Assembly (NCBI GenBank): GCA_000165345.1
Contig: CM000430.1
Span: 384,001-448,000, forward strand
Direction of reading: 5' to 3'
DNA length: 64,000 bases
Part shown: positions 2,260 through 42,863 of the stretch, piece after piece
How the letters are laid out: each line of letters opens with the position of its first letter
Position numbering within the stretch: position 1 is the stretch's first letter
Notes under the pieces: model-generated
The model's input: the letters and a program-made list of their open reading frames with translations, nothing else
Databases searched by the model: none
What the model was told of the DNA's origin: nothing
Translations under genes and position numbers: made by a program

Positions 2260-2706
2260 TGTAAAAACTTCACAAACTTAAACTTTGTGCTCCAGGCTCT
2301 ATTTACTACGTTAATAGACGATTCAGTCAATTTTCTTCTCAGCTCTTCAATGAGACGTCTTTGCAGTTTTATAAAGACACGACAAGTACAAACTTAAAAA
2401 ATGACTTGTCGAATAATAATATATTATAAAATCACTTTTATTATTGCTGTCTCAAAAGTACCCGCCATGGAGATTAAATAATGTTGCGCTATATTTTGAC
2501 TGAAGTTATCATAAAATTAATTAATAAGAAAATTCAACTCGTTTGAAAATGTAAATATTCTTACAAAAGAGAATTTTCAATATTCTTAGGCGGCAGCTAC
2601 ATGTATTTTATTTTTGCATGTATTTGCAAGTATTACAAAGTTTGAATTAATAGTTTTTTTAGTTGCAGAATTTAGATATATGATTTAGTACTTTCCTGAA
2701 AATACA

Positions 2707-4056
2707 ATGGATTTCAAAAAATACGAATTAATTAAAGAAATAGGGAGCGGAACTTTTGGTAAGTAGTTGTTTTGTGAAATTGTATCAAAGTTATTAGTTT
2801 AGGCCGCGTTTGGATGGCAAAAGATTTTGATAGCAATGAGTTTGTGGCAATAAAAAGAAGGCCGAAATGGCAAAATATCGTAAGGTATGTTTTGGAGTCG
2901 CTTTCTTAATTGATCAATCATTATTTTTATCAGCCGCGAAGTTGAGGCGATGGAGGCAGTTAAAGGAGAAAGGGGGATTGTACAAATTAAAGGATGTTTT
3001 TATAGTTTAACGCCAGGAGGAATAATAATGCAAAACATTGTAATGCCATTAATGACAAAAAGTTTAGGCGTTTTTATTAGAGAGAATAGGGCATTAAGAA
3101 AGCAAAACTCATCACATAGAATATCTCCAGAATTGGTGAAAAATCTTTCATTTCAAATTGTTAATGGCTTAGCTGCATTACATTCATCTGGATATACTCA
3201 CCGTGATTTCAAGCCAGACAATATTTTATTGATGGATACAGATGACAGTGAAAGAAAGTTTCCTACAATTAATATTTGCGATTTAGGTAAGTTGTAATTT
3301 GATTGGTTGCTATTAATTTTCCTTAGGGTCTTCAAAAAAACTGTTGAATAACAGTATTCACATGCCTTATGTGGTAAGCAGATTTTACAGAGTAAGTTTG
3401 CATCTGAAAAATAGTAAATGTAAATTCTTTCAAGGCACCAGAATTATTACTAGGAAGCTGCGATTACAATGAGAAAATTGATATTTGGGGTAGGTGCGGA
3501 TTATTTTTGTGATTAAATATCATTTTCTTTAGCTTTGGGTTGCATTCTTGCTGAACTATTGGCACTTGATCCTATTTTTGTTGGTAAGTATATGAAAATA
3601 GAATTGCATTAAAAATCAATTTCTTAGGCCGATGCCCAGACAAATATAGAGACAATAAAGTTAATTATAACAAACAAGGAGTTGATGAACCATTTCAAAT
3701 CCTGAAGATTATTGAAGTATTGGGGAGTCCCAACTCAAATGATATAGAATTAATTAAAAAAACGGTTCCTAAATCAATAATTAAGGTACTAGATGAATGC
3801 CTTCTTAAATCTGAAGTTTCCTCAATCTCATGGTTGGAAATATTTGAAGGATTTTTCACAGACGGGTATGTTTTAATCAATTATTTCTTTAATTTACATT
3901 TTTTTAGAGAAAGATTACTAGTAGAAATTATTTCGAATTGTATTCAATGGAATCCTACTAAAAGGCCATCAGTAAGTTGAATGATAAATATCTACAAATG
4001 AATTAAAGTTGCTTAAGGCCATTGAAATATTGAAGAGTAAATATTTTGAAAATTAA
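2707..4056 (+). CDS. CMGC-group cyclin-dependent-kinase-like Ser/Thr kinase, 9 exons
   Basis: Exons (my count): 2707-2758, 2803-2884, 2934-3286, 3327-3391, 3435-3489, 3533-3583, 3628-3865, 3908-3971, 4018-4056. All eight introns are GT(A/G)(A/G)GT...AG and 40-49 nt long. The phases join into one frame: MDFKKYELIKEIGSGTFG|RVWMAKD..FVAIKR..|..HRDFKPDNILL..ICDLG|GSS..YVVSRFYR|APELLLG..DIW|ALGCILAEL..|..NPTKRPS|AIEILKSKYFEN. This gives kinase subdomains I, II, VIb, VII, VIII, IX and a CDK-like C-terminus. The ORF-track fragments 2950-3297 and 3720-3980 are internal pieces of this gene. Confidence 0.75.
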
Positions 4057-4178
4057 ATTTATTTTTGGATTACTATTCTCGCATAATTGCATTGTGGGGT
4101 TTTAGTTTTGCGCTTTTTTATTTGCATGCCAAAAAAACTTGATTATTATTAAATTTAGAATAATAGTTTTTTAACAAC

Positions 4179-5063
4179 ATGGATTCAGAGTTAGAAGGTG
4201 TATTAGGAATTTCTGTTGAGAGTCGGAAACTACATTTAAGTAAGTTATGTTTCTTTTGCTTAATATATGCAGATTAAAAATTAGAAAAAATTTATAAGGA
4301 AATTGGCGAAATTTTGTTAAAAGTAAAGGAGCTTACTGAAATTGATAGTGCTGCAGAAATGTTTGATTATTCAAAGAGAATAGAACATTTGATGACAAAT
4401 TTTGAACAAATTAGCAGAATTAATGATGAAAATAAATTGGTGAAGAATATTTTAATTAAAGAAATATCCGGCATTGAAGGCAACATCGAAATGCTTAAAT
4501 TGGAGTTCTATAGGATTTCAAGCCGACTTTCTGATTCACTTAAAGAGAAGGATTACTTAGAGTATGAATTGAACAAACTCAAAAATAAGTACAAATCAAC
4601 CAACGATGAGTTGAACGAAATAAGAAATAAATTATCAGCAAGAAACGAAGAATACGATGAATTTAAAAAACTAAATGAATGCATGAGAAAGGAGGTCGAG
4701 GATTTAGAGCTGGCAATAACCTTGGAGGAGAACGCAATTTCTGAAAAGAGAAAGGAACTAAAAAACCTGGAAATGGTCAGCATCGGAAAGGAAACAGAAA
4801 TAAGAAAACTTGACAAATTGGCCTCCCAGACTATTTCGGAATTAAAAAGGAAAGTCAAGATAAGAGAGATAATTGAAGACAAAGTAAACGCCCCATCACG
4901 TTCCATCCCAGTAAAAGTTCGCCACGTAAATAAAGAAAGCAAAAATTCCAACCATAAAGATTTCAAAGATCAAAACAAAATACTGATAAATGAACGAGGA
5001 AAGTTGTGCAGTTCATTACAAAACATAAAAATAAAAAGAATAATGGCGCAACACATTATATGA
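4179..5063 (+). CDS. Coiled-coil protein of unknown function; the 5' exon is tentative
   Basis: The ORF 4314-5063 is Lys/Glu/Leu-rich with heptad-like periodicity (ELNKLKNKYKSTNDELNEIRNKL...). Upstream, ATG 4179 begins MDSELEGVLGISVESRKLHL, then GTAAGT at 4240 and an acceptor AG at 4283-4284, giving a 45-nt intron that joins in frame to KKIYKEIGEILLKVKELTE. The alternative is a start at the internal Met near 4359. Confidence 0.4.
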
Positions 5064-13246: not shown

Positions 13247-13953
<707 letters not shown>

Positions 13954-16201: not shown

Positions 16202-18334
16202 CTAATATTTATATAAATAATTCTTGTTAACGTTTTTGTTTTGCTGAGATGTATAAAATGGAGGAGGATGGTGTAACGTATTCACTCCAACTCCAGACGA
16301 AGTACTTTTTCTACCGACCATATCGTTTAACTTAGAATTTGGTTCAATATTAGGTTCATTATAATATGTTATTTTGCTCGTATTGCTCCGATTTTGTTGC
16401 ATTTGTAGATTAATTATGCTAGTTTGATTGGAACCATGGCAATTCAATTTGAATTGGTTTGAAAGTTCTGGATTATTCGAGTATTTTAGATTCGAGGTAT
16501 TTTTACCCAAAAGTGAATTGCTCGACTCTGAGTTCGGAATTAGAGAGTAATCTGGCAGATTGTGCTTGATATTATTGTACATATATGCTCTTGGATAGTA
16601 AACGTGCGAATTTCCACCACAATTTGTACTTACTGAAAATGTGGAGTTGGCATTTTTTATTACTGCGCCTGTTGATATATACTTGGAGTTTTTAGTGCTA
16701 CTATTGGTTGCTTTCGTCGTATTATCATTTGTAGAGCTTAAATTATTTCCTATGAATCCTCCCCCTTTCTTTATTGGGTTGCTATTATTAATTGAGCTAG
16801 AGTAGTACGAAGCTGCAGATCTCATTTGCTGTATGTGTTTCTCATCAACCTTACCATTGGAAAAATTGGAAATGGCTGGGCTATTACCAAAAGAAGTCGT
16901 TTTATTAGTTGCTGAGCCAGAAATAAAGGTATTATATACTTGTGAGAAAAAGTTTCCCAGTATACCTCCTTTTTTCGAGTTATCTGCTGGTGGGTTTTTA
17001 TTAATGGAAGATCTTTTGTTTGATTGTAGTTCACTCTGGAATTTACTATAAATCGGCTCGTTGGACTTATTTGAAGTAATGTTATCGGGATTGCATTCTG
17101 GAGTAGCAAATTCAACAGCTCCAGATACTCTATTAACTCTAGGATTACTCACTGCAGTATTTGGGTTTTGAACATTTTGGTGTTTGTTACTGATCAATTC
17201 TCGTTTGCGTCTTGATATTTCTGAATATACCAAGTTTCTATAGTCATCAATCGAATGCTTAACATTATCGTTTATTGGTATAGTAATTATATGATCACAA
17301 TTTGGTTCTTCATTTGGATTGTGAAAAATTGAAACAAATGGGTGTTTTAATGCATCGTTTGCAGAAATCCTCTTATTTGGATTAAATTGTAGCAATTTAT
17401 CTAATAAGTCCAATGCTTCTTCGTTACAGTCAGCTTTTGGGTTTATTTTTAGTAGTAAATTCTTCCATTTAGTAAATATATCTCTTTTATTTGATTGTCT
17501 TATCTCAACTTTTTCTTTGAGCGACTCTATCATTGTTTTGGCAAAGGGTGATTGGATCGACTCGACATCTTCGTTAGAAGGGAAATCTATCACACCTATG
17601 ATTCTTTCAAGTTGATTCATAGTTGATGAACCTGGAAAAATTGGTTTTCCACACAATATCTCTCCCAAAATACAGCCCAAAGACCACATGTCAATCCCCT
17701 TTGTATACTTAGTTGATCCTAAAAGTATTTCTGGAGCCCTATACCATCTAGTTGCAACATAGTCTGTGAGAATAGGCTGATCATCATCGAAATTTTCAGT
17801 ATTTTCGTTAATACTTAATGGAATATTATTTGTAACACGCCTTATGTTGACAAAGCTTCTAGATAATCCAAAGTCTGCCACTTTTACATGGCATTCAGCA
17901 TTTAGAAGTATATTTGATGGTTTCATATCACGATGTAATAACCCACCACTATGTAAATATTTAATTACCTTAATAAGTTGATAAACTACATATTGTTTAT
18001 GAACAGGCTCCAAAATATTTGCTCTAATGACTGCATGTAGGTCCGTCTCCATATAGTCAAAAACCAAGTAGACATCTCTATCATTGTCTGCTCTTAAGAC
18101 ATTTAGTAAATTTACAATATTCTCGTGACCAGATAGCTCTGTCAATATCATAATCTCTCTAAATGTTCTTTGAGCATCTGTTGAATTTTGAAATGCATCG
18201 AAGATTTTCTTGACTGCAACTACTTCTCCAGTCCTACGATCAATAGATTTCCAAACTATGCCATACGCACCCTTCCCCAACTTTTTTACCAGTTCATATT
18301 TCCTCAATACATGTCTGTCAACTCTATCACACAT
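16202..18334 (-). CDS. MAP kinase, ERK7/MAPK15-like (TDY activation loop) with a long Asn/Ser-rich C-terminal tail
   Basis: KYELVKKLGKGAYGIVWKSIDRRTGEVVAVKKIFDAFQNSTDAQRTFREI..., HRDMKPSNILL, DFGLSRS, TDYVATRWYRAPE and DMWSLGCIL are present. The first 340 or so residues align with MAPK15/ERK7. About 370 residues of low-complexity N/S/T-rich tail follow. Confidence 0.85.
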   Translation of the reverse strand: MCDRVDRHVLRKYELVKKLGKGAYGIVWKSIDRRTGEVVAVKKIFDAFQNSTDAQRTFREIMILTELSGHENIVNLLNVLRADNDRDVYLVFDYMETDLHAVIRANILEPVHKQYVVYQLIKVIKYLHSGGLLHRDMKPSNILLNAECHVKVADFGLSRSFVNIRRVTNNIPLSINENTENFDDDQPILTDYVATRWYRAPEILLGSTKYTKGIDMWSLGCILGEILCGKPIFPGSSTMNQLERIIGVIDFPSNEDVESIQSPFAKTMIESLKEKVEIRQSNKRDIFTKWKNLLLKINPKADCNEEALDLLDKLLQFNPNKRISANDALKHPFVSIFHNPNEEPNCDHIITIPINDNVKHSIDDYRNLVYSEISRRKRELISNKHQNVQNPNTAVSNPRVNRVSGAVEFATPECNPDNITSNKSNEPIYSKFQSELQSNKRSSINKNPPADNSKKGGILGNFFSQVYNTFISGSATNKTTSFGNSPAISNFSNGKVDEKHIQQMRSAASYYSSSINNSNPIKKGGGFIGNNLSSTNDNTTKATNSSTKNSKYISTGAVIKNANSTFSVSTNCGGNSHVYYPRAYMYNNIKHNLPDYSLIPNSESSNSLLGKNTSNLKYSNNPELSNQFKLNCHGSNQTSIINLQMQQNRSNTSKITYYNEPNIEPNSKLNDMVGRKSTSSGVGVNTLHHPPPFYTSQQNKNVNKNYLYKY

Positions 18335-19169
18335 GTTTTTTTATTTTTCAATTATTTCTTAATGTAATTTTTACCAAAGGAATTCAATTGAGTTAAAAAT
18401 ATGGCAATAACATTTAGTTTAATAATCCAAGCCAATAATAATATCACCTATTCACACAAAAAGGATATCAAGTATTCTTGGAAAGTAATTCATAATAATA
18501 GAATTAACCAAATTTGAGATAACCTTTAAAAATAAACCCAATTTGAGCTTATTCTCTGTACGGATTCATGAAATAATAGTTATTCTCACGCCAGTAATTT
18601 ATGAGAAACTTTGGATTATTCCAAATTATTTAAACTTTGAAATTTGATCAATTTAGTTTGGAATTATTTTGCTTTTTCACGAATGCCTTATTCTAGAATA
18701 TAATAAATTTGTCAACGGCTCACAATAGGGATTCACACGCTCCAGCGCCCATGGTTATACGTAATAATATTATACAAAAATGCATAATTTTTATTTTAGA
18801 TCAAAACAAATCAGTTTTTTCTTACTAGTTTGTGTTAAGACTTGTTTTCTTCAGCTCGTTAAGCATATAAAAGCATGCAATAATAAATTGCCAGACTAAC
18901 TACTTTAACAACCTAACTATGCAATGTAAATATTACCTTTATGAATTTATAACCTAGATATTCCTACAGAATACTAATGACCTATATATATCAATCGTTT
19001 TTTTGGGCTGAAGAGCATAATTTTATCTGCCTCTTTCGAGTTTCCCGAATTTTTTTGCTTTCCTCTAGCGGAAGAACAGGAAAATTCGGAATTCCAGTCG
19101 AACAATTTTTTTCAATCTTCAACTTGTTGAGAACATTGCAAAATGACCATTTTGGGCACTCACAGTTTT

Positions 19170-19484
19170 NGNCANTACATTNAATANATCAACNNTACTT
19201 NNAGNNNNNNANNTNNNGNNANTTTNNCGNNGGAGATNGATTGTNNAGNTAGNANTNANCTNGTTNNNTTAATNNAAANNTCAATTNNGGAATCTGANTN
19301 NTNTTNNNANTANNANTANNNNTAANNGNANAANATTTNNANGNNNTTNNTNGAAGTTNANTANNTAAATCNNCAGNNNTTGAAAATGANTTNNNANNAT
19401 CGCTTNNTNNNTTTNGNNNNTNNTNGCTNGATTTGCAAGCNCNTGAAANNTNNNANNNCNANATANNNNTGCNAATNNGGANAN
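19170..19484. other. Block of interspersed ambiguous bases (N), probably low-quality or unresolved consensus
   Basis: About half of the positions are n, mixed base by base with called bases. Isolated n also occur at 19889 and 20087-20088. The block overlaps the 3' end of the 990-aa minus-strand gene. Confidence 0.9.
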
Positions 19485-22253
19485 TTTCTGTGGATCCATA
19501 TCTATTGGGCTTTCAAATTCGATTTTTTCACTGTCTTGCGACAAATAATTTATTTCAAATTCACTTTTTATTAACAAGCCTAACATCTCCATAGCTTCAT
19601 CATCTATTTTACTATAGTTATTCAATTGAGAAAATATAACATTTTTAATCACTTCATAAATATAAGGATTGTATGGCACAATAATTTTCAAAAAATTGTT
19701 GTAAATTTGTTCCAAAACAATAAACAAATTGTAAATTGAACCAAAAACTCTTCTTATTCTTTTGCCCGTTTTCTTATTTACAAACTCTCTCTCTTCTATT
19801 AAATTGCCATCTAGATCAGTCCCATCATAAATAAATTTCGACACCTTGTCAACCAGTTTGACTTTATTGAACAAATTCTCCAATGTTGAATATGACCCNA
19901 ATCTGATTCCTAATTCAAAAATAGTTTTACACTGAACTGAAATGTGGCTATTTTCTCTTCTCTTTATGAATACATCTAAAAGCCATACCCAAAATTCAGT
20001 ATTCAAATAATTAATTAATTCATGCTTTTCGTCATAAAGTAATGTTGTTTTAATTATCGTTAATAACGAAACCATATATGCTGTTTNTTTACTGTTTGTA
20101 TCAATCTCAAATTTTGAGATAATAAACTCGCAAAACTTAGTTAAATACGGCTTGATAGCGTTAATAATTTTGGTTTTCAGGCACCCTATGACATTAATGT
20201 TCACAGAAAAAGCAAGATTTATTACTTCTTCCAATATACCGAGAGATCTCAATTTCAATATGTAAATATTTTCGTTTATTATGTTATTAGAATTGTGAAC
20301 TGATAATTCACAAAAAATCTTTAGCATTGATGAATCAATTATTAGATTGTTCAAAAACTGCTTAGACTTTTCTAAAATTTGATAAATTGAGAAATTTTTA
20401 ATCATATCTCCATCATTTGTCGCTAATATCAAACAATTATTGACTTTAGTTCCATAAATTGTGTCATCTTTATTTTTTCCAATAAAATTTGTTTCTCCAT
20501 TCAGTATTTCATTTGAATTAAATCTTTTTCCAGAATTTTCATATTCAAAATTATTGTTCACGCCTATTTTTTTTTGAGAAGTTTTAAAACTTGAATTGTA
20601 CAATTGATTACCTTCTGTTATAGAATGTTCAATATCAACAAACTTGACTGAATTAGAAATTTCACATTCTGCTCCGCACGATAGATTTAGATTTTTGTTC
20701 AAGTCATTCTGAAAATATAAACTTCTTAGATTGTTTAACTCGCTAGAAAATGTGGGCCATTTTATTCCAATGCTAGTCATATTTAAAGGTAACCCAGTAT
20801 GCTCTGGCTTCAAATATTCTACTAATCTAAAAATAACCTCAATTATTCCGGAAGCTACATTTATAATATCGGGCCTAAACTTGAATTCTGGTTTCTCTAC
20901 AAAATCTTCTTGGTTATAACTCATTACATCCAAAAGGGGAGAAAGTAAATTCTGAATAAAGTCCGACTCAATAACCCATTCATATATTATTGGCGAAATC
21001 CCAACTTCTAAAAGATGTTCTTGAATATACGGCTTGTCTGTACTAAATTCGCTAATAAAGTTCACCCGGTTTGATTCCAAATACTCAAAATCCAGTATTG
21101 AGCTTGAATATTCTCCAAATTTTGATTCTTGTTGGCAATTATTCCCAATAATTCCAAAAAACCTTAAAAAAAAATCCTGTATAGAGGAATAATTAATGAA
21201 CGGTATAATTACCAAAGGCCCATTTAATTGAAGAAATATTGAAGTGAATTCTTTTTGATGTTTTGAAAAGCAAATTTCTAATAGTCTGCCTATATAGAAC
21301 GGAGTTTGGTTGCTGTCACAAACAATGGGATTATCCTTAAGCAAATATGAAATTGGATGCTCCTCTACTAAATTGTCACAGTTAGCAATTAAGCTCATAT
21401 TTTTTAAATAGTTTACTATCTTCATGATTAATTTCGGAATTTGTTCCTCTGAAAATATACTGATTATTTCCTTAGAACTCTCCAGTTTAGAACACCTGTT
21501 TGTATTGTTCGATTCTAGATTAAACTCAGGAAAATTCTGCCTTATTAACCAAGCATAATCAACTTCAGAAACGGCTCTCGAAATAGGCAGCAAAAATGAA
21601 CTTGCTTTTTCATTCAAATTGATATTTATAAATGGTTTTTCAGAGAATAATATGTTGTTTGGACTCACACCTAGTAAATAATAATAAAGTATCGATGAAA
21701 TTACATTGTAATTCTGGAAGTCGCACTCAAGTTCCTTTTCATAAAACAAATTACTCACAGGAAGTAAAATATCTATCATTGAATCTATAATAAGGCTTCC
21801 AAATCCTTCAATTAAGAAATTTGAAATGCAATCTTGAAATAGAGTATAAAAATATAATAGATTTTTGTTGCCCCCCCCAGAAGAATAATGAATTTCTGCT
21901 GCATGGTCTTTCAAGATATTCAATATTGATGAAATTATTTTTTTTTTAGTATCAATTTCGATATCAATTTTACTTAAATTTGGCCCATCAGCTACAATTA
22001 ATCGGTGGCTTTCTAATCCGGCATCATGTAAGTTTCTTGTACAAATAGTATTTGTTTGGCTATCCCTTGATGAATAAAAATTTATGGAACTGCCATTTAT
22101 TTTTGAGATGTTTATCTCGTTATGATATATGGAAGCTTCATCCAAATTATTATCGGAGGCATTTAAATTAAGTTCTTCTAAGCTCTGCCTTGATATTATT
22201 CGCATGTTTTCATTAATTTTACGTTTACCTACCATTTCATTATAAAACTCCAT
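19281..22253 (-). CDS. Large hypothetical protein (at least 990 aa); the 3' end is unresolved because of N bases
   Basis: Long minus-strand ORF with ATG at 22253. Its C-terminal 70 or so codons fall in the N block, so the true stop cannot be read. No recognised domain. Confidence 0.55.
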   Translation of the reverse strand: MEFYNEMVGKRKINENMRIISRQSLEELNLNASDNNLDEASIYHNEINISKINGSSINFYSSRDSQTNTICTRNLHDAGLESHRLIVADGPNLSKIDIEIDTKKKIISSILNILKDHAAEIHYSSGGGNKNLLYFYTLFQDCISNFLIEGFGSLIIDSMIDILLPVSNLFYEKELECDFQNYNVISSILYYYLLGVSPNNILFSEKPFININLNEKASSFLLPISRAVSEVDYAWLIRQNFPEFNLESNNTNRCSKLESSKEIISIFSEEQIPKLIMKIVNYLKNMSLIANCDNLVEEHPISYLLKDNPIVCDSNQTPFYIGRLLEICFSKHQKEFTSIFLQLNGPLVIIPFINYSSIQDFFLRFFGIIGNNCQQESKFGEYSSSILDFEYLESNRVNFISEFSTDKPYIQEHLLEVGISPIIYEWVIESDFIQNLLSPLLDVMSYNQEDFVEKPEFKFRPDIINVASGIIEVIFRLVEYLKPEHTGLPLNMTSIGIKWPTFSSELNNLRSLYFQNDLNKNLNLSCGAECEISNSVKFVDIEHSITEGNQLYNSSFKTSQKKIGVNNNFEYENSGKRFNSNEILNGETNFIGKNKDDTIYGTKVNNCLILATNDGDMIKNFSIYQILEKSKQFLNNLIIDSSMLKIFCELSVHNSNNIINENIYILKLRSLGILEEVINLAFSVNINVIGCLKTKIINAIKPYLTKFCEFIISKFEIDTNSKXTAYMVSLLTIIKTTLLYDEKHELINYLNTEFWVWLLDVFIKRRENSHISVQCKTIFELGIRXGSYSTLENLFNKVKLVDKVSKFIYDGTDLDGNLIEEREFVNKKTGKRIRRVFGSIYNLFIVLEQIYNNFLKIIVPYNPYIYEVIKNVIFSQLNNYSKIDDEAMEMLGLLIKSEFEINYLSQDSEKIEFESPIDMDPQKXSXXAXXXXXXXFXXLANXXXXXXXXXAXXXXHFQXLXIXXXNFXXXXXNXXXLXXXXXXXXXRFXN

Positions 22254-25174: not shown

Positions 25175-25944
25175 CTATAGATAAACAGTAGAGCCATTTA
25201 CCCACTCTGAAAATTCTCTTTCATTTATTCCACTCTTTTGGTTTTCGTCTAAAGCATTGTATATAATGCTTAAATCAGTAACTCCAAACTGTTGTCTTCC
25301 GTTAGTATAATCTGCTGCCATTCTACTAAATTCTTCAAATTGCATTCCGTACACTGGATCTGCGATCGCATATCTTCTATATACATCAGCTACAGTTGAT
25401 GTTTTTGTTGTGATAATATTTTTCCTAACTCTTTCAAGCCTTACACTTTTTTGCAAAGATATCAATAATCCAATAATTGCAACCCCAGCAACTGCAATAG
25501 AAGTCAGAAAGGCCAGAAGTGCTAGTACTCCTGCCCCTCTCCTTTGAGGCCAGAGTGTAGTGGATGTAAGGCAACTAAGAAATAAAAGGCAAAGGCTCTT
25601 TCCTGTTAAATGGGTTAAAAACCTTGCTTCTTTCCTAATCAATGCTCTACCTCTTGCCGACCAACGTGGGCTTCCAGGAACATCGAGAATCATCAATAAA
25701 ATTCCAAATAAGAGTTGGAATAGGGAATTGATCATATTTGCCGGCTGAATATTAAACAATGAATTTGTAGCAGCTAATACGCCTGCTGCAGAAGATGCAC
25801 CAGCTCCAATGAAAAATAGAGTCTGGTATCGACAATTCAAATCTTGGAGAGTCTTTTCTACTCTTGCCCCGCCTATAATTATTTGATCGGCCAAAGTTAC
25901 ATCCACTTTGGAAGAGCTCTTAACGCCAACTATAAACCTCTCGC
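25175..25944 (-). CDS. Four-TM membrane protein with a C-terminal EF-hand-like loop, paralog A; the 5' end is unresolved
   Basis: The ORF-track start is GTG, not ATG. The homologous region extends upstream to an acceptor AG at 25946-25945 (...FVGERFIVGVKSSSKVDVTLADQ aligns with paralog B IGVFQEKIEHSGEIVDATLAEF). A candidate micro-exon ATGAAAA sits at 26000-25994 with a weak GTACAT donor. Shared blocks with B are YQTLFFI, PRWSA, LTGKSL.LLFLSCL.STTL, GLLIS and LSIIYNALDENQKSGINEREF. Confidence 0.55.
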
Positions 25945-26462
25945 CTACAAAAAAAGTTTGTAAGTATTAACTTTTTCAACCAAATAGATGTACTTTTCAT
26001 TATAAATACAAAATGGTAATTAACTTTCAGAGTTGCATAAAATCAAAACAGTTAAACTTTTATTAGTAGATGTCACCATAGTATCTATAACATCTCCACA
26101 TGCAAAGTACTCTAACGACTAACTTACCTGAAATCCCACCTTGTGTTTCATACATTTTGTATCAAATCTATTCGCAATATCAAGTTAAATGTCCAAAGAA
26201 GTGGTATGATAACTATTGGTTAGTATAGCATTAAATACTAATTCCCTCGATTTCAATTCTATCACACATTCGCAAAGACTTTGTACTGGAAAAAATACCG
26301 CCTAAATTCATTCATATATTTACTAAAAAATAGGATTAAAATTCAAATAAAAATAATTAGATCTAGTCAAAAAAAAAAGCAAGCTATTGCCACAGAAATG
26401 TTCATAAAATATAATATAAGGATTTAGTAGCAAAACACCCTAATTTATTTCTACCAAACAAG

Positions 26463-36080: not shown

Positions 36081-37127
36081 TTAAACTAATAATTTTTCAC
36101 ATTGAATAAGTGTAGAATATTCTGGTGAAATATCATCGTCCGGATGTAATTTGCAGTAATCAATTAGGAAAATCATGCGTTTGTTAACTTCTTCTCGGAT
36201 TTTGTCTTTTGATGAACTGCTAAGTTTAGGATTGAAGGCATTAATCAGTTCGAGTAAGGTCTCCGAGATCGTTTCGCCGTATTGAATATTTTGATATTCC
36301 TTGTTAGATATAGAGTTGTTTTTTGAAAGAGTTAAAATAGTATCTATGATCTTACTGTTATTATTTCCAATGATATATTCACTTTTGACTACTCCTTGTA
36401 TTAATAAGTGTCTTAATAGTGACAGTGCTCTTTCACGAACTCCTACATTTTCAGAATGAAGCCACAAAGCAATAAGTGGTATTCCATTATCGGAAATAAA
36501 TGAGCCTTCTAGGGTTTTATTATGGCGTACCAGTGATGATATCGCAGTAATTCCTTTTGATTTATTTGTTTCAGAATCTTCACCTTGAACGCTTTGTTTT
36601 AATAATGATAAAGCTCCTAATTTTGCAAATGAATTTTGTACAGGTAAGTTGTTTTGCATACTCTTTGAAAGTATTTGATATGTAATAGATCTGACTTCTT
36701 CTGAGCGAGACAAACAGCTCAATAATGGTTGAACTATTCCTAATTTCTCAAAGTTTAAGGCACAGTCAGGAAGTTCTACACAACGATCTATTACTGCAAG
36801 TGAGGCAAGCACTTCTTCATCTAAAAAATTTAAGTTTAGTTATTTCACTCCTATTACCAAACTTACCATTCGAAAGACTTAGTTTATCCTTCGCTTCTAA
36901 AATTAATTTATTTGGATCAACCACATTTTTCATAGCTTCTCTAACTGCTCCCTGAAGAAATTCCAATCTTTCTGGGTCAATGTGCCTAATATTAGAATTA
37001 GAATATGTATCCTCTATAAAAATATGTATTACAATTAATAAATAATAAATAGGGTACTTTTATACAGTAATTCGAACATACCAATGTATCTTGAAGACCA
37101 TTTCAAAAGTTGTGACCAGTCGAACAT
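36081..37127 (-). CDS. FES1: Hsp70 nucleotide-exchange factor Fes1 / HspBP1-like (armadillo repeats), 3 exons
   Basis: Exons on the minus strand: 37127-37082 (MFDWSQLLKWSSRYI, with donor GTATGT), 37013-36867 (EDTYSNSNIRHIDPERLEFLQGAVREAMKNVVDPNKLILEAKDKLSLSN) and 36820-36081. The introns are 68 and 46 nt. The body ALNFEKLGIVQPLLSCLSRSEEVR...KSKGITAISSLVRHN...GIPLIALWLHSENVGVRERALSLLRHLL aligns with HspBP1 ARM repeats. The ORF track shows only the last exon, and its M is a GTG. Confidence 0.7.
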
Positions 37128-37285: not shown

Positions 37286-40200
37286 ATGAGTTTTAAAGTA
37301 GAAAGTAATCTTGTTCGCTCAAGTACCTTAAAAAGTTACAATAAATCTTATATCAAGAAAACTAGAAGAGGGAAGATTAGAAAAGTCTCAAATGAAATTT
37401 ATGTTAGAAACGAGATACTATGCGGACTTAATTTTTGCACTTTGTGTTACGGGAAATATTCGGGTATTTCAAACCAAAAAGCTCGGAATATTATTTTTCC
37501 TAACTTTGATATATTTAATAAATACAGCGACTTCATTTTAGAAGATGAATCTTTAAATCACGTGGTGATTCCGTATTCAATACTCGACTATTTGAATGAG
37601 ACAGATAGAACCGTTATTAATAAATTAAGAAATAAACTTAGAAACCAAAATGAATTACCAATATTTAAAGAAATTGAACTGACGAGTGAAAATAACTTGT
37701 TTGATTATAATGTTAATCAGTATATTCGATTTCCAGACACGCAATTCACTGAAACATGTTTGAATCACTCAATTAGTAGATTTAATTTTGAAGATTGTGC
37801 TGGAAATTCAATTATAAAAGTAGCTATCTGGTTTATTAATCATTTATCAAAATCCAATATAAATATTCGTTTCTATATTTTGACAGAAAATGAAGAATGG
37901 ATCAAAAAATTTACTTCTAATTTATCATTTGACTCAAAATGTTTTATTGTAAATCCATATGAATATATTAATTTTGTCTCAAACGAATATGTAAATTCTG
38001 GTGATAAACTTCCTTTCAAAACATCGTTGGTGAATGATAATAGCCAACCAGAAAATAATTGCATTTTCACAGAATATGCCTCAGAAAGAGAGATTTTACA
38101 AGGAATTGACAGAGGAGTTTTATTTAAAGGCATATTGCGAATGATTTCTAGAAATAGGGGCGAAATAGAAGTAACAAACAAAAATAGAAAAATGACCGTT
38201 AATATAATTGGGCACCTTAATTTAAATAGGTCTATAGATGGTGACTTAGTTGTTGTTAAACTTGATGAAACATTAAATTGTGATGAAAAGAACTTAAAAT
38301 CCAAAATCAAATCTGAATTGGAGCTTGATCAAATAGAGGATTTTGAACATAGTGAAATAGCGGGAATAGGAAGTATTTTATTAGGAGATGACGATTATGA
38401 CGAAAATTCAGCATTAAACATCCAAAATATTAGCATTCAGAGTATAGAGAATGAAGATAATAATTCATTAGCTTTTTCTGAAAATACCAATTTTTCTGGG
38501 AGGGTTATTGGGGTATTAAGTCGCAATTGGGGTGAGTATTGTGGCTCTTTGGTTCCGATTAATTCAAATGACGATCGATTTAATATTTGCAACAACACCT
38601 CCACAAGGCAACATCGGATTTTTGTTCCAATCGACCCGAAAATACCAAAGATTATAATTCATACAAAACTTTCATCCACTATTGAAAATCAGAGACTAGT
38701 TGTAGTAATTGATGAATGGGACTGCTCATCATTTTATCCCACTGGGCATATAGTAGGAGTATTGGGTAAAGCTGGAGATCTTGAAACAGAAACTTCCGTA
38801 ATTTTACGTATAAGAGATATAAATTCATCTGAATTTTCTCCATCTGTTTTGAAATGCCTTCCAAATAATGATAGAAACGATGATTGGAAGCCGAATGAAA
38901 TTGACTTTAGAGATAGAGTTGATCTAAGAAATAAGTTAGTTTTTTCTGTAGATCCCCCAGGATGCAAAGACATTGATGATGCTCTAAGTATTGAATTGAT
39001 CAACCCAAATGATGATAATTCTCAAGAAAAGTGGTATCTTGTTTCTGTTCATATTGCTGATGTAACGCATTTTGTTAAGCCTAACACTCCAATAGATGAT
39101 GAAGCATCCAGAAGATCTAATACATGTTATCTTGTAAACAAAAGGATAGATATGCTCCCAGAAGAACTCACAACAAATATATGTTCTTTAGTTTCAAATA
39201 AAGATAGATTATCCTTCACATGTAATTGGGAAATTAACGAGAACGCAGAAATTAGAAATGTATACTTTAATAAAACAATAATAAATTCCAAGTACTCTTT
39301 CACATATCTTCAAGCACAAAATATCATTGATGACAAGTGCAACAATTCAGAAATAGCAATTTCTCTAAGAAGACTAATGAAAATTTCTCAAGTTTTAAGG
39401 AAAAATAGAATTAGTCGTGGTGCGATTGAACTCTCTTCTTCAGAAGTAAAAGTTGATTTTGAGGAATCCAGAAACTTATATCAAGACTTAAATCACAATG
39501 ATTTGGGCAAAGAACAAATTTCATCAGTAATTTTGAATATAAAAAATGTATACGCATATAATTATTTGAATACGAACTCAATGGTTGAGGAGTTTATGTT
39601 ATTGGCAAATGTTTCTGTTGCAAGGCAAATCATTTCAAAATTTCCAAACTGTTGTTTATTAAGAAGGCATCCTGAACCAAAGTACGATCAATTAGAGAAG
39701 CTTAAATATGTCCTTTCAAAAGTTGGAATCAGTAATTTTACCTATGAAAATTCATTAAGCTTATCTAACAGTTTGAAAAATATTCTAGATTCAGAAATTA
39801 TAAAGAAAAATCCCATTATTGGAAAATTGGTTCGAATTTTGACAACGCGTACAATGAATCAAGCATTATACTTCACAACTTGCAAATCTGTGGAGGGAAC
39901 ATTTCATTATGGCCTTGCAGAGGAAATATATACTCACTTTACTTCTCCTATTAGAAGATATGCTGATATTATTGTTCATCGTCTACTTTCGGCTTCTATT
40001 GGACTAGAGCCACTATGCGAATTAATTTTTGACAAAGACTATGTAAGTTCATGATATTTTAAATTTATTTTTATTCATTATTATTTTAGATGTTTAAGTT
40101 ATCAAATACGCTCAATAAAAATAAAAGAAATGCTCAAATGGCTGGTAGAGATTCAACAAGACTATTTATTTACCTTTTTTGTAAGCAAAACGGTAATCAA

Positions 40201-40490
40201 GAAACTGAAGGCATTATTATTCAAGTAAGAAATGACTCATTACTAATTTTTGTACCTAAATTCGGCTTTGAAGGTAAGTTAATAATCATTTAAAGGTTTC
40301 TAAATAATTGTTGATAGGCATTGCACCAATTGACAAGAGCAAATATATATTTGATGCTAATGTTCCTTACTTGAAAAATCTAGAGAAAGAAACTGATACT
40401 CTTAAATTATTTGATAAAGTAAAGGTTTCTATATATGCATCAGATGAATACTTCCAAAATAAGGTAATGATTAATATTATTTCTGATTAA
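37286..40490 (+). CDS. DIS3: Exosome catalytic subunit Dis3 / Rrp44-like RNase II-family exoribonuclease (CR3-PIN-CSD-RNB-S1), at least 3 exons
   Basis: Exon 1 is about 37286-40042: CGLNFCTLCYGKYSG CR3-like cluster, PIN-like region, then the RNB signature VDPPGCKDIDDALSIE...VHIADVTHFV...YFTSPIRRYADIIVHR. GTAAGT...AG introns sit at about 40043-40089 and 40274-40317. Exon 2 40090-40273 encodes MFKLSNTLNKNKRNAQMAGRDSTRLFIYLFCK, and exon 3 starting at 40318 encodes ...LFDKVKVSIYASDEYFQNK; both match the Rrp44 S1 tail. A possible further 30-nt intron (40464-40493) with a terminal micro-exon 40494-40511 is an alternative to the read-through stop at 40490. There is a 1-nt inconsistency between my count and the ORF-track end near 40031-40054. 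Confidence 0.8.
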
Positions 40491-40606
40491 TAGATATCAA
40501 TCCTTTATTGACAAGTGATTTAAATTGAAAAATTTATTTCCCAATATTATGCAGTGTTAGACCTGAGGTTGAATAATAATGAATATTTACAATAGCACTT
40601 GTTAAC

Positions 40607-41267
40607 TTACGATTTTTGTTCAGCAATACTTTTATCTGCCCTATAGAACGCAAGTTCAGACTCTAATTCTCTAATTGAGTTTTTTATATTCCTTTTCATA
40701 ACCTTTTTGTCAACCGTTGATATCAACTTCTCAAGTTGAATAATTTTTTTCGCTAAAAATAATTAGAATGAAAATTAAATTTTTAATAAACTTACATTCA
40801 ATTTTTTTCCTCTGATGTACTGTTGCAGAAAGAGATGATAATAAGTTAGTCAAAGCATCTGGGCGTATAACAACTAATGGTATCGGATTAATGCTTGGGA
40901 CCGCATCACCATTTCCAGTTGCGGTGTTCCTTATTTCTTCTCGAAGCTTTCCTTGATTGATACTTACAGGAGCAGTGTTAGGGAACTTTAAAGTCATCTT
41001 TATTGTTGTAGTTGGAGCCCCTGGGGTGGAAAAATTATTCAATTCACTAAATATCGGTCTCTTCTTGCTGAAACTCAAAACATCTGCAGCTTCTCCAACC
41101 AAATTGCTTGTGGCTCCATGTAGATTTTCGAGTTCTTTTTCGTGCTGTAATATACTTTGTCTAAGTTCTAGTAAATTGTTGATTTTATTGTCGCATCTAG
41201 CAACGTTTAAACAGTAGAAAAATAAAAATAAATAAGCAATAAATTGAATTCCAATAAAACCTTTCAT
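40607..41267 (-). CDS. Small secreted protein (signal peptide), paralog 1; 2 exons, the second tentative
   Basis: ATG at 41267 followed by the hydrophobic signal FIAYLFLFFYCLNVARC. On the minus strand GTAAGT lies at 40795-40790 and the acceptor AG at 40754-40753, giving a 43-nt intron. The downstream exon 40752-40607 is open for 48 codons (SKKIIQLEKLISTVDKKVMKRNIKNSIRELESELAFYRADKSIAEQKS*). Confidence 0.45.
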
Positions 41268-42155: not shown

Positions 42156-42575
42156 TTTGTCTTAAAAAATGAATAATTCAAATAATATTATACTCAAGAA
42201 TTAAAATCCTATGTTCAATTTAAACAATATTGCTAGAACTTCCTGAAATAGGAAAAATGGCTGCATGCGGAAACAGATTGCATGAATAAAAATACATGTA
42301 AAACGATACTTGTCACAAGTGACATTCATACCGCCATGTGTACGCATGATGACCGCCGAGTGTACATGTGGCTGAATTTACAGGTAGATCATTGTGGGGT
42401 CATTTTTACGCCAGTAAATTCAAATAATTTATAATTTATGTGGAAAAAAATATTGCCAGTTATTACAATAAAGTATTTTTAAAAAATATAATAAAAAGTT
42501 GTATATCGCACAAATTCGTAAGTTTGAAAACATGAAGGAGTAGTTAGGCAATTTATTACATTTTAGAAATTGAAA

Positions 42576-42863
42576 ATGACTCAAAACATCAAAACTAAGA
42601 AAGCTACTAAGGTATCAAAGAAAGAAGCAAAAAAAAATAAACCTAAGAGAGCAATGACTGCGTTTATGTATTTTGCTAGCAGTAGAAGAGCAGAGATTAC
42701 AGCAGCAAATCCAAGTTTGAGGTCGCAAGTTGCTGAAGTTGCTAAGATTCTTGGTGAGGAGTGGAGAGGGATGAGTGAATCAGATAAGGCACCATTCCAG
42801 AAGCAGGCAGATGCAGACAAGAAAAGATACGAACGAGAAAAGGCACAAATGGCAGGACAGTAG
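42576..42863 (+). CDS. HMG-box (HMGB-type) chromatin protein
   Basis: ATG at 42576 (the track M at 42570 is TTG). A basic N-terminal stretch is followed by a single HMG box PKRAMTAFMYFASSRRAEITAANPSLRSQVAEVAKILGEEWRGMSESDKAPFQKQADADKKRYEREKAQ. Confidence 0.8.
   Translation: MTQNIKTKKATKVSKKEAKKNKPKRAMTAFMYFASSRRAEITAANPSLRSQVAEVAKILGEEWRGMSESDKAPFQKQADADKKRYEREKAQMAGQ

What the first reader, a model, noticed from the sequence alone, without database searches (positions are those of the whole stretch)
2707..4056. CDK-like kinase gene split by eight 40-49-nt introns in a window of mostly intronless genes
About 30 of the roughly 40 genes here are single long ORFs, including 1426-, 1818- and 1140-aa proteins with no interruption. 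This 1.35-kb kinase gene instead carries eight canonical GTAAGT/GTATGT...AG introns that are all 40-49 nt long. The exon phases join perfectly into a complete kinase (GSGTFG-VAIK-HRDFKPDN-DLG-YVVSRFYRAPE-DIW-NPTKRPSAIEIL). The ORF track shows it only as two unrelated fragments. Such an intron-dense gene in a compact genome suggests a different evolutionary history, such as retained ancestral introns in a cell-cycle gene, or regulation by intron retention.
Basis: seen in the sequence. Interest (0 to 1): 0.55.

Follow-up and report, generated by a model that had tools for sequence, protein, structure and literature searches.

The report
Known nine-exon GSK3-like kinase gene
This is the already annotated Cryptosporidium parvum gene cgd2_1880, a GSK3-like (not CDK-like) protein kinase that really is split by eight tiny introns conserved across the genus, so it is an unusual but ordinary, known gene.

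Summary
The window is C. parvum chromosome 2. Removing eight GT..AG introns (44, 49, 40, 43, 43, 44, 42 and 46 nt) from 2707-4056(+) gives a 332-aa protein. That protein is 100% identical to the public entry "Cgd2_1880 protein" and covers the whole Pfam kinase domain. All eight intron positions and phases recur in the syntenic orthologues of C. meleagridis, C. canis, C. ubiquitum and the gastric species C. serpentis. Between species, exon lengths differ only by multiples of three, while intron lengths drift freely. About 29-30 of ~37 annotated genes in the window have no intron, and published statistics give 2-10 exons (mean 2.6) for intron-bearing genes, so nine exons is near the genome maximum.

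Three corrections apply.
- The kinase is closest to GSK-3, with the priming-pocket residues and activation-loop tyrosine conserved. It is not CDK-like: it has no PSTAIRE helix and no T-loop threonine.
- Intron 7 has no in-frame stop, and intron 4 only shifts the frame.
- Lengths of 40-49 nt are typical for introns in this window.

A 228-aa public entry is exactly the read-through of intron 6, but nothing shows this is regulated. Intron origin is unresolved: one position is shared with a Paramecium homologue, and the nearest gregarine homologue has no introns. Low novelty.

The parts
2707..4056 (+). Coding region of C. parvum gene cgd2_1880: 9 exons, 8 introns, 332 aa plus stop
   Evidence: The product is identical to P0001, 'Cgd2_1880 protein'. 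Pfam Pkinase 1-263/263.
2707..2758 (+). Exon 1 (52 nt): start codon to the first base of the third Gly codon of GSGTFG
   Evidence: Exon length is identical in 5 species.
2759..2802 (+). Intron 1: 44 nt, phase 1, GTAAGT..TAG
   Evidence: Same position and phase in 4 other Cryptosporidium species and in Paramecium octaurelia P0136.
2803..2884 (+). Exon 2 (82 nt), containing the VAIK lysine
2885..2933 (+). Intron 2: 49 nt, phase 2, GTATGT..CAG
   Evidence: Conserved in position and phase in 5 species.
2934..3286 (+). Exon 3 (353 nt): alpha-C Glu, HRDFKPDN catalytic loop, start of DLG
   Evidence: Its length in other species differs only by multiples of 3 (350, 368).
3287..3326 (+). Intron 3: 40 nt, phase 1 (in the Gly codon of DLG), GTAAGT..TAG
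3327..3391 (+). Exon 4 (65 nt): activation loop with Tyr177 and SRFYR
3392..3434 (+). Intron 4: 43 nt, phase 0, GTAAGT..AAG. No in-frame stop inside; retention shifts the frame.
3435..3489 (+). Exon 5 (55 nt): APE through DIW
3490..3532 (+). Intron 5: 43 nt, phase 1, GTAGGT..TAG
3533..3583 (+). Exon 6 (51 nt)
3584..3627 (+). Intron 6: 44 nt, phase 1, GTAAGT..TAG. Its read-through gives ...FVGKYMKIELH*, which is the 228-aa public entry P0123.
3628..3865 (+). Exon 7 (238 nt): CMGC-insert region
3866..3907 (+). Intron 7: 42 nt, phase 2, GTATGT..TAG. Open in frame in C. parvum. It is 41, 43, 44 and 58 nt in the other species, so it must be spliced there.
3908..3971 (+). Exon 8 (64 nt)
3972..4017 (+). 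Intron 8: 46 nt, phase 0, GTAAGT..AAG, 36 nt of coding sequence before the stop codon
4018..4056 (+). Exon 9 (39 nt, including the stop TAA at 4054-4056)

Best explanation
The feature is the annotated protein-coding gene cgd2_1880 on Cryptosporidium parvum chromosome 2.

How it works. Its pre-mRNA carries eight short U2-type (GT..AG) spliceosomal introns. These are removed constitutively to give a 332-aa Ser/Thr kinase that appears catalytically competent. The kinase belongs to the CMGC group and to the GSK3 family in the broad sense. It is a divergent second GSK3-like paralogue alongside the canonical CpGSK3, cgd4_240. Its nearest relatives are small kinases of ciliates and a gregarine.

Age of the introns. 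All eight were present in the last common ancestor of intestinal and gastric Cryptosporidium. In the intestinal lineage they have shrunk to near-minimal length: 40-49 nt, against 53-128 nt in C. serpentis. The gene therefore escaped the intron loss that streamlined most of the genome. It is a tail-of-the-distribution gene, not a different kind of element.

Unspliced transcripts. Seven of the eight introns would truncate the protein if retained. The intron-6-retaining product on record is most simply an incompletely processed transcript.

Shown versus inferred. Shown here: the gene model, genus-wide conservation of intron positions and phases, the kinase classification by sequence, and purifying selection (from the literature). 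Inferred: constitutive splicing, kinase activity, and escape from loss as opposed to gain in the stem lineage.
For: - **Identity of the window.** A 1140-aa ORF from the window is found 100% on C. parvum chromosome 2 records CP029781.1 and CP044421.1. The kinase region is base-identical to L001-L004.
- **Match to the annotation.** The spliced product equals P0001 (WRK30977.1 / UniRef F0X412, 'Cgd2_1880 protein'), 332 aa, 100% identity and coverage. The IOWA-ATCC model QOY43045.1 (325 aa, 'partial') uses the same eight introns. Baptista 2022 states that its introns are 100% RNA-seq supported.
- **Domain.** Complete Pkinase domain in one stretch, E 2.8e-45.
- **Comparative signature.** The eight positions and phases are identical in C. 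meleagridis, C. canis, C. ubiquitum and C. serpentis. Exon lengths are identical or differ by multiples of 3, while intron lengths vary freely. Intron interiors diverge faster than exons: 0.87 vs 0.94, 0.66 vs 0.84, 0.58 vs 0.77 and 0.41 vs 0.68.
- **Purifying selection.** C. parvum vs C. hominis dN/dS is 0.073 (supplement of PMC4637869).
- **GSK3-like classification.** PDB phmmer gives GSK-3beta 8.5e-36 / 127 bits, C. parvum GSK3 (3EB0) 104 bits and CDK8 100 bits. R46, R135, K166 and Y177 align with GSK-3beta 'NRE', 'HRD', 'GSAK' and 'SYICSRYYRAPE'. The NJ clade with GSK3B and Ygk3 has 70% bootstrap.
- **Catalytic residues.** K35, E47, D136, N141, D161 and APE are invariant in the family alignment.
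- **Context.** Isaza 2015 reports 10.8% of genes with introns and 2-10 exons, mean 2.6. The window has about 37 genes, of which 7-8 have introns. Other single introns in the window are about 43-49 nt.
Against: - I examined no transcript data directly. Splicing support rests on database proteins and on statements in papers.
- That F0X412 and F0X6G6 derive from sequenced cDNA clones is my recollection and was not verified here.
- 'Escaped intron loss' assumes the introns are older than the genus. The nearest non-Cryptosporidium homologues with genomic DNA (Porospora, L011, L021) have no introns. Only one of eight positions is shared with Paramecium, so gain in the Cryptosporidium stem is not excluded.
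- Relationships within the GSK3 clade are unresolved (32% bootstrap).
- The C-terminal third does not align to GSK-3beta by phmmer.
- Kinase activity is untested. The DFG motif is DLG, and the HRD loop has Phe where most kinases have Leu, Ile or Val.
Confidence: 0.85

Rival explanations
1. Regulated intron retention. The eight introns are kept because splicing of one or more of them is delayed or switched in particular life-cycle stages. Retention would give premature stop codons and so gate production of the kinase.
For: - A public 228-aa 'Cgd2_1880 protein' (P0123, UniRef F0X6G6) is exactly the intron-6 read-through product.
- Seven of the eight introns would truncate the protein if retained.
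- Reviews state that intron retention is the most frequent alternative-splicing mode in protozoa and is abundant in Toxoplasma and Plasmodium.
- Three of the eight donors are non-consensus (GTATGT x2, GTAGGT), and these are shared by the four intestinal species.
Against: - There is a single record, and the intron involved has a consensus GTAAGT donor and a TAG acceptor.
- Intron interiors evolve faster than exons and share no motif beyond the splice signals.
- No Rfam element was found.
- Baptista 2022 names only three putative alternatively spliced genes in the whole genome. I could not map their identifiers to this locus.
- In Toxoplasma and Plasmodium, retained introns mostly yield untranslatable transcripts, and this kind of splicing is typically thought to be stochastic although it can be regulatory.
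- 5 of 8 GTAAGT donors against 84% genome-wide is not a significant deficit (hand binomial P ~0.12, using the frequency from PMC2483917).
Confidence: 0.1
2. Lineage-specific intron gain. Most of the eight introns were inserted into an intronless ancestral gene in the stem lineage of Cryptosporidium, and were not retained from an intron-rich alveolate ancestor.
For: - The closest homologues outside the genus with genomic DNA are single uninterrupted ORFs: Porospora cf. gigantea (942 nt), L011 and L021.
- Seven of the eight positions are not shared with the Paramecium homologue.
- None is shared with a rotifer GSK3-like gene.
- The introns are spread along the whole gene, without the 5' bias expected for survivors of 3'-biased loss through reverse transcription. 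The expectation itself is from general knowledge.
Against: - Intron 1 coincides exactly, in codon and phase, with intron 1 of Paramecium octaurelia P0136. My hand estimate of the chance of at least one match is ~3-4%, though a proto-splice-site bias would raise it.
- The eight introns show no similarity to each other, so there is no sign of copy-and-paste intron elements.
- Cryptosporidium evolution is described as dominated by intron loss and shortening (PMC8744675).
- Porospora and kinetoplastid-like outgroups may themselves have lost introns.
- Intron-bearing homologues in metagenomes would be called as fragments and missed, which biases the sample towards intronless genes.
Confidence: 0.25
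3. One reading: a CDK or CDK-related cell-cycle kinase.
For: CDK8 and CDK-E proteins appear among the hits at 28-30% identity with full-length coverage. The protein is a CMGC kinase, the group that also contains the CDKs.
Against: - GSK-3 scores higher: 127 bits against 100 for CDK8.
- The alpha-C region reads SREVEAMEAV, not a PSTAIRE-type motif.
- The residue at the CDK T-loop threonine position is Met175, whereas the GSK3/DYRK-type tyrosine (Y177) is present (plus sequence reading).
- The tree separates it from the CDK8 and CDK2-like sequences.
Confidence: 0.04
4. Not a functional gene: a decayed pseudogene whose ORF fragments only look spliceable.
For: The unspliced sequence has only short ORF fragments. 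Several automatic annotations call only a 115-aa piece.
Against: - The spliced product is a complete kinase domain.
- The identical exon structure, with an intact reading frame and stop codon, is found in five species.
- dN/dS is 0.073.
- All catalytic residues are invariant.
Confidence: 0.01

Closest known systems
The existing annotation of C. parvum cgd2_1880 (WRK30977.1; UniRef F0X412; IOWA-ATCC QOY43045.1)
   Same: The 332-aa product is identical and the same eight introns are used.
   Different: Nothing in the gene model differs. The public name is only 'protein kinase domain containing protein'. The IOWA-ATCC entry is flagged partial and stops at window position 4034. The orthologue models in C. 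hominis, C. ubiquitum and C. ryanae are fused to the downstream gene, and those of C. meleagridis, C. canis and C. serpentis miss 2-3 of the introns.
Glycogen synthase kinase 3 (human GSK-3beta; C. parvum GSK3 cgd4_240, PDB 3EB0)
   Same: It is the best solved-structure match. Equivalents of the priming-phosphate pocket residues (Arg96, Arg180, Lys205) and of the activation-loop Tyr216 are conserved, as are the FYS and SR(F/Y)YRAPEL motifs. Residue numbering is from established GSK-3beta literature. The two share a clade with 70% bootstrap.
   Different: Identity is only ~33-38%. The motif is DLG, not DFG. There is an extra 17-residue insert after subdomain IX. The C-terminal third does not align to GSK-3beta. 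There is no N-terminal Ser9-type tail, because the protein starts 5 residues before the Gly loop. The published kinome lists cgd4_240 as the only GSK of C. parvum and does not list cgd2_1880.
Small GSK3-like kinases of ciliates and a gregarine (Paramecium octaurelia P0136, P. sonneborni P0143, Porospora cf. gigantea P0013, and unnamed metagenomic proteins P0006-P0014)
   Same: They are 31-39% identical over ~97-99% of the length and of the same size (300-323 aa). They share S-R-E in alpha-C, FY(S/T), QN, and PY(I/V)VSRFYRAPELLL. Paramecium intron 1 lies at the same codon and phase as C. parvum intron 1.
   Different: They lack the Cryptosporidium insert RCPDKYRDNKVNYNKQG. Most have DFG. Porospora and several others have no introns. 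The three other Paramecium introns lie elsewhere. Orthology is not resolved.
Typical intron-containing genes of C. parvum (Isaza 2015; Irimia & Roy 2008)
   Same: Short, AT-rich GT..AG introns with the strong GTAAGT donor and no clear branch-point consensus. Their lengths are similar to the other introns in this window.
   Different: This gene has nine exons against a mean of 2.6 (range 2-10). The introns are spread over the whole gene, down to 36 nt of coding sequence before the stop codon. They are somewhat shorter than the published median of 61 nt and mean of 82-99 nt.

Membership tests
U2-type spliceosomal (GT..AG) introns | GT at the 5' end and AG at the 3' end, with the extended donor typical of the organism (GTAAGT in Cryptosporidium) | tested here: met
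   All eight are GT..AG: 5x GTAAGT, 2x GTATGT, 1x GTAGGT. The 84% GTAAGT frequency for Cryptosporidium is from PMC2483917.
U2-type spliceosomal (GT..AG) introns | Removal restores one continuous reading frame that encodes a complete, homologous protein | tested here: met
   332-aa ORF. Pkinase 1-263/263. 100% identical to the annotated protein.
U2-type spliceosomal (GT..AG) introns | Comparative signature: position and phase conserved; exon lengths change by multiples of three while intron lengths do not; introns diverge faster than exons | tested here: met
   Five Cryptosporidium species.
U2-type spliceosomal (GT..AG) introns | Spliced junctions observed in transcripts | not testable with these tools
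   Only indirect evidence is available. Public protein entries equal the spliced product and an intron-6 read-through. Baptista 2022 states that all annotated introns are RNA-seq supported.
Eukaryotic protein kinase, CMGC group | Complete kinase domain with the catalytic Lys, alpha-C Glu, HRD Asp, Asn, DxG Asp and APE, plus the CMGC arginine before APE and a CMGC insert | tested here: met
   Pfam PF00069, E 2.8e-45. K35, E47, D136, N141, D161, R184 and APE are invariant in the family alignment. An insert lies between subdomains X and XI.
GSK3 family | Priming-phosphate pocket (GSK-3beta Arg96, Arg180, Lys205) and activation-loop Tyr216 | tested here: met
   R46, R135, K166 and Y177 align to these positions in the phmmer alignment with 3F88. 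Residue roles are from established GSK-3beta structural literature.
GSK3 family | Closest to GSK3 among kinase families by sequence and by phylogeny | tested here: inconclusive
   The best PDB hits are GSK-3. The NJ clade that includes GSK3B and Ygk3 has 70% bootstrap, but internal branching is unresolved at 32%. Only the N-terminal two thirds align.
GSK3 family | Preference for primed (pre-phosphorylated) substrates; tyrosine autophosphorylation | not testable with these tools
   This requires a biochemical assay.
   The alpha-C region reads VSREVEAMEAVKG. The PSTAIRE criterion is as used in PMC3227725.
   The residue 12 positions before the APE glutamate is Met175. A GSK3/DYRK-type Tyr177 is present (sequence reading).
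Copy-and-paste intron elements ('introners') | Introns of one gene or genome share extended sequence similarity | tested here: not met
   Alignment of the eight introns shows only the splice signals conserved.
Introns retained because they host small RNAs | A recognisable snoRNA or other RNA family inside an intron | tested here: not met
   No Rfam match at E <= 1 in 2300-4400. Introns of 40-49 nt are shorter than typical snoRNAs (general knowledge).

The most novel reading that the evidence does not exclude
cgd2_1880 is an overlooked second GSK3-family kinase, absent from the published C. parvum kinome. It belongs to an alveolate-restricted subfamily found in ciliates, gregarines and Cryptosporidium. 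I saw no orthologue in Plasmodium or Toxoplasma among the listed hits. On this reading, its exceptional, genus-wide intron load is maintained because stage-specific intron retention or detention gates its expression.
Probability: 0.07. Interest if true: 0.5.

Novelty: already known. Interest (0 to 1): 0.18.

Why it matters
Its importance is mainly practical.

- **Annotation and kinome coverage.** The introns have repeatedly broken or distorted automatic gene models. Prokaryote-style callers return a 115-aa fragment. Some species' models miss introns, and others fuse the gene to its downstream neighbour. The gene is also missing from the published C. parvum kinome that is used for drug-target selection. 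Recognising it adds a second GSK3-like kinase to that list.
- **Evolution.** It is a clean example of a gene that kept a full set of introns through genome streamlining, with lengths compressed to about 40-49 nt. It could serve as a test locus for studying intron loss, minimal intron size or splicing efficiency in Cryptosporidium.

None of this changes current understanding.

Tried and rejected
1. **tRNA and Rfam scans.** Neither found anything in or near the gene.
2. **Literature.** A full-text search for 'cgd2_1880' found no paper. The only mentions are a dN/dS table in the supplement of PMC4637869 and its absence from the kinome paper.
3. **Ancestry via outgroups.** Porospora and two Logan contigs have no introns. 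Paramecium gave one shared position out of four. The rotifer GSK3-like gene gave none out of two, with one near miss two codons from intron 5.
4. **Metagenome scan.** A scan with the subfamily profile returned mostly distant, bacterial-type kinases. Spliced alignment on the five most promising loci gave either no intron or weak, probably spurious introns, none at C. parvum positions. I do not use these results as evidence.
5. **Similarity among the introns.** None was found, so copy-and-paste intron elements are rejected.
6. **The 325-aa IOWA-ATCC model.** I first suspected an alternative 3' splice form. It is simply the same model truncated and flagged partial.
7. **Bootstrapping.** A first Biopython bootstrap run timed out. 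I redid it with my own distance code.
8. **Structure prediction.** I judged it unnecessary for the question and did not run it.
Full report
**What is in the sequence.**
The region 2400-4400 is AT-rich (about 32% G+C). In the mechanical ORF list it contains only short fragments on the + strand: 47 aa, 115 aa, 42 aa and 86 aa.

I started from the ATG at 2707 and enumerated GT..AG introns at the eight strong donors. Their lengths are 44, 49, 40, 43, 43, 44, 42 and 46 nt. This yields a 999-nt CDS that ends at TAA 4054-4056.

The 332-aa product matches the Pfam protein kinase domain end to end (positions 1-263 of 263, E 2.8e-45).

GTAAGT occurs 31 times on both strands of the window. Five of these lie on the + strand of this 1.35-kb gene, where about 0.33 would be expected. 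My hand Poisson estimate is P ~2e-5.

**Where the window comes from, and whether the gene is known.**
A 1140-aa ORF of the window occurs identically on C. parvum chromosome 2 records CP029781.1 and CP044421.1. The kinase region is base-for-base identical in four fetched copies.

The spliced product is 100% identical over its full length to P0001. This is [quoted passage not shown] / UniRef "Cgd2_1880 protein".

Its 90% cluster holds three other entries:
- A 325-aa IOWA-ATCC entry flagged partial. It is the same model and merely ends at window position 4034.
- A 604-aa C. hominis entry that fuses the kinase to the next gene.
- A 228-aa UniRef entry that ends ...PIFVGKYMKIELH.

My simulation of single-intron retention shows that the 228-aa sequence is exactly the read-through of intron 6.

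The eight-intron model is therefore already public. Baptista et al. 2022 state that all introns of the IOWA-ATCC annotation are supported by RNA-seq. I believe the two UniRef F0X... entries are translations of clones from the full-length cDNA project. That project completely sequenced 1066 C. parvum cDNAs (PMC3013703). The link to these particular entries is my recollection and was not verified here.

**Independent comparative test.**
I fetched the syntenic loci of four other species. All have the same flanking genes: RabGAP, a WD40 gene, the kinase, a small gene, then an epimerase. I then ran my own spliced protein-to-genome alignment.

In C. meleagridis, C. canis, C. ubiquitum and the gastric-clade C. 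serpentis there is a GT..AG intron at each of the eight positions with the same phase. The positions are after residue 17 (phase 1), 44 (2), 162 (1), 184 (0), 202 (1), 219 (1), 298 (2) and 320 (0).

The resulting proteins are 331-337 aa and end at a stop codon.

Exon lengths are identical (52, 82, 353, 65, 55, 51, 238, 64, 39) or differ by multiples of three. Intron lengths drift freely:
- 40-49 nt in the four intestinal species.
- 53-128 nt in C. serpentis.

Intron interiors are less conserved than exons in every comparison: 0.87 vs 0.94, 0.66 vs 0.84, 0.58 vs 0.77 and 0.41 vs 0.68.

This is the classic signature of real introns. It also dates all eight to before the split of the intestinal and gastric clades.

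The alignment was guided by the C. parvum protein. That biases it towards the same positions, but it cannot create GT/AG pairs, matching phases or open frames.

The deposited models of those species contain only 5-8 introns, some of them wrong or fused. This shows how the gene structure defeats automatic annotation.

Isaza et al. give dN/dS = 0.073 against C. hominis, which indicates purifying selection.

Not every intron carries an in-frame stop.
- Intron 7 is 42 nt and open in frame, so retaining it would insert 14 residues.
- Intron 4 has no stop inside, and retaining it only shifts the frame.

For intron 7, the evidence for splicing is the annotated product and the lengths in the other species (41, 43, 44 and 58 nt).

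A length of 40-49 nt is not peculiar to this gene. From the annotation tables, the other single introns in the window are about 43-49 nt. For example, the downstream gene has a 45-nt intron at 4240-4284. Published figures for C. parvum are a median of 61 nt and a mean of 82-99 nt.

**Is the gene an outlier?**
In the window I count about 37 annotated genes. Of these, 29-30 have no intron. The other intron-bearing genes have roughly one to three introns each.

Genome-wide, Isaza et al. report introns in 10.8% of genes, with 2-10 exons per intron-bearing gene and a mean of 2.6. Nine exons is therefore at the extreme of the distribution, though not unique.

Gastric species are more intron-rich: C. 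proliferans has 1,951 introns in 1,135 genes. This fits continuing intron loss and shortening in the intestinal lineage, which this gene escaped.

**What kind of kinase.**
- Against solved structures, the best matches are GSK-3beta (8.5e-36, 127 bits). Other GSK3s follow, including the C. parvum enzyme 3EB0, and CDK8 comes only at 100 bits.
- In the alignment with GSK-3beta, R46, R135, K166 and Y177 occupy the positions of Arg96, Arg180, Lys205 and Tyr216. These are the priming-phosphate pocket and the activation-loop tyrosine (residue roles from established GSK-3beta literature).
- There is no PSTAIRE-type helix. Met175 sits at the position of the CDK T-loop threonine.
- A neighbour-joining tree on 198 columns puts the Cryptosporidium clade in a group with human GSK3B, yeast Ygk3, a rotifer GSK3-like protein, Porospora and ciliate-type sequences (70% bootstrap). 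That group is separate from DYRK, CDK8/CDK-E and a CDK2-like protein. The order inside the group is unresolved.

The catalytic residues are all present and invariant in the family, so an active enzyme is the reasonable inference.

The closest relatives outside the genus are 31-39% identical proteins of 300-323 aa. They come from Paramecium, from the gregarine Porospora cf. gigantea and from unnamed metagenomic sources. No Plasmodium or Toxoplasma protein appeared among the listed hits.

The published C. parvum kinome lists cgd4_240 as the only GSK. It does not mention cgd2_1880 in the text or in the held supplements. The likely reason is that the early gene model was a fragment; this is my inference.

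**Origin of the introns.**
I tested the "retained ancestral introns" idea as far as the tools allowed.
- The Porospora gene and two metagenomic homologues are uninterrupted ORFs.
- The Paramecium octaurelia homologue has four tiny introns. Its first intron splits the third glycine codon of the GxGxxG loop after the first base, exactly as C. parvum intron 1 does. The other three do not coincide with any C. parvum intron.
- A rotifer GSK3-like gene has two introns. Neither is shared, though one lies two codons from intron 5.

With 8 and 4 introns in roughly 900 codon-phase slots, at least one exact coincidence has about a 3-4% chance (my calculation). A proto-splice-site preference would raise this. 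The match is therefore suggestive, not proof.

The eight introns do not resemble one another, and no RNA family is embedded in them.

My conclusion on origin:
- All eight introns are at least as old as the genus.
- One may go back to the alveolate ancestor.
- For the rest, retention versus gain in the stem lineage is open.

**Intron retention.**
The 228-aa entry shows that a transcript with intron 6 unspliced was captured at least once. That intron has consensus signals, and the introns carry no conserved internal sequence.

Reviews note that little is known about splicing isoforms in Cryptosporidium. They also note that retained introns in related parasites mostly give untranslatable transcripts.

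I therefore treat regulated retention as a minority possibility (about 0.1). It can be tested with existing RNA-seq data.

**Verdict.**
The object is an ordinary, already annotated gene that sits at the intron-rich extreme of an intron-poor genome. It encodes a GSK3-like kinase, not a CDK-like one.

The new points here are small:
- Genus-wide conservation of all eight introns.
- One intron position shared with Paramecium.
- Recognition that this kinase is missing from the published kinome and is mis-modelled in several species.

Noticed in passing
window 19262-19486 (plus single sites 19899 and 20087): This stretch is peppered with ambiguous 'n' bases and differs by a 2-nt indel from CP029781.1. 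It lies inside the 3' part of the minus-strand gene 19008-22253 (1081 aa in that record). In the window it breaks the ORF at 19281. It looks like an assembly or consensus artefact, not biology.
   Followed up: partly
window 4179-5063 (+): The downstream gene (279 aa, no Pfam hit) starts only 122 nt after the kinase stop. It has one 45-nt intron at 4240-4284 (GTAAGT..TAG). Public models in C. hominis (604 aa), C. ubiquitum (556 aa) and C. ryanae (585 aa) fuse it to the kinase.
   Followed up: partly
literature (PMC3227725) versus window 2707-4056: cgd2_1880 is absent from the text and the held supplementary tables of 'The Cryptosporidium parvum kinome' (73 kinases). That paper lists cgd4_240 as the only GSK.
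   Followed up: partly
L019 1501-2516 (Paramecium octaurelia CAJJDP010000086.1): The GSK3-like homologue P0136 has four introns of 21-30 nt. The first is at the same codon and phase as C. parvum intron 1. A second kinase gene (294 aa) lies immediately upstream on the opposite strand.
   Followed up: partly
L005 3001-4616 (C. serpentis JBHPOL010000031.1): All eight donors are GTAAGT and the introns are 53-128 nt. In the four intestinal species, introns 2, 5 and 7 carry non-consensus donors (GTATGT in three species and GTGCGT in C. canis for intron 2; GTAGGT; GTATGT) and all eight introns are 40-49 nt. The deposited 317-aa model misses the last two introns and uses a different acceptor for intron 5.
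   Followed up: partly
window 16202-18334 (-): A second protein kinase gene in the window (710 aa, Pkinase) is a single uninterrupted ORF. It is a direct local contrast to cgd2_1880.
   Followed up: no
window ~25175-26155 (-), 36081-37127 (-), 37286-40490 (+), ~40547-41267 (-), ~42443-42863 (+), 13247-13953 (+): These are the other intron-bearing genes of the window, judged by annotation span versus product length: COPI_assoc (~183 nt of intron), a 310-aa gene (~114 nt), Rrp44 (~91 nt), a 205/209-aa gene (43 or 91 nt, the annotations disagree), an HMG-box gene (0 or 49 nt, the annotations disagree) and a Ras/Arf GTPase (47 nt). GTAAGT sites fall in each.
   Followed up: no
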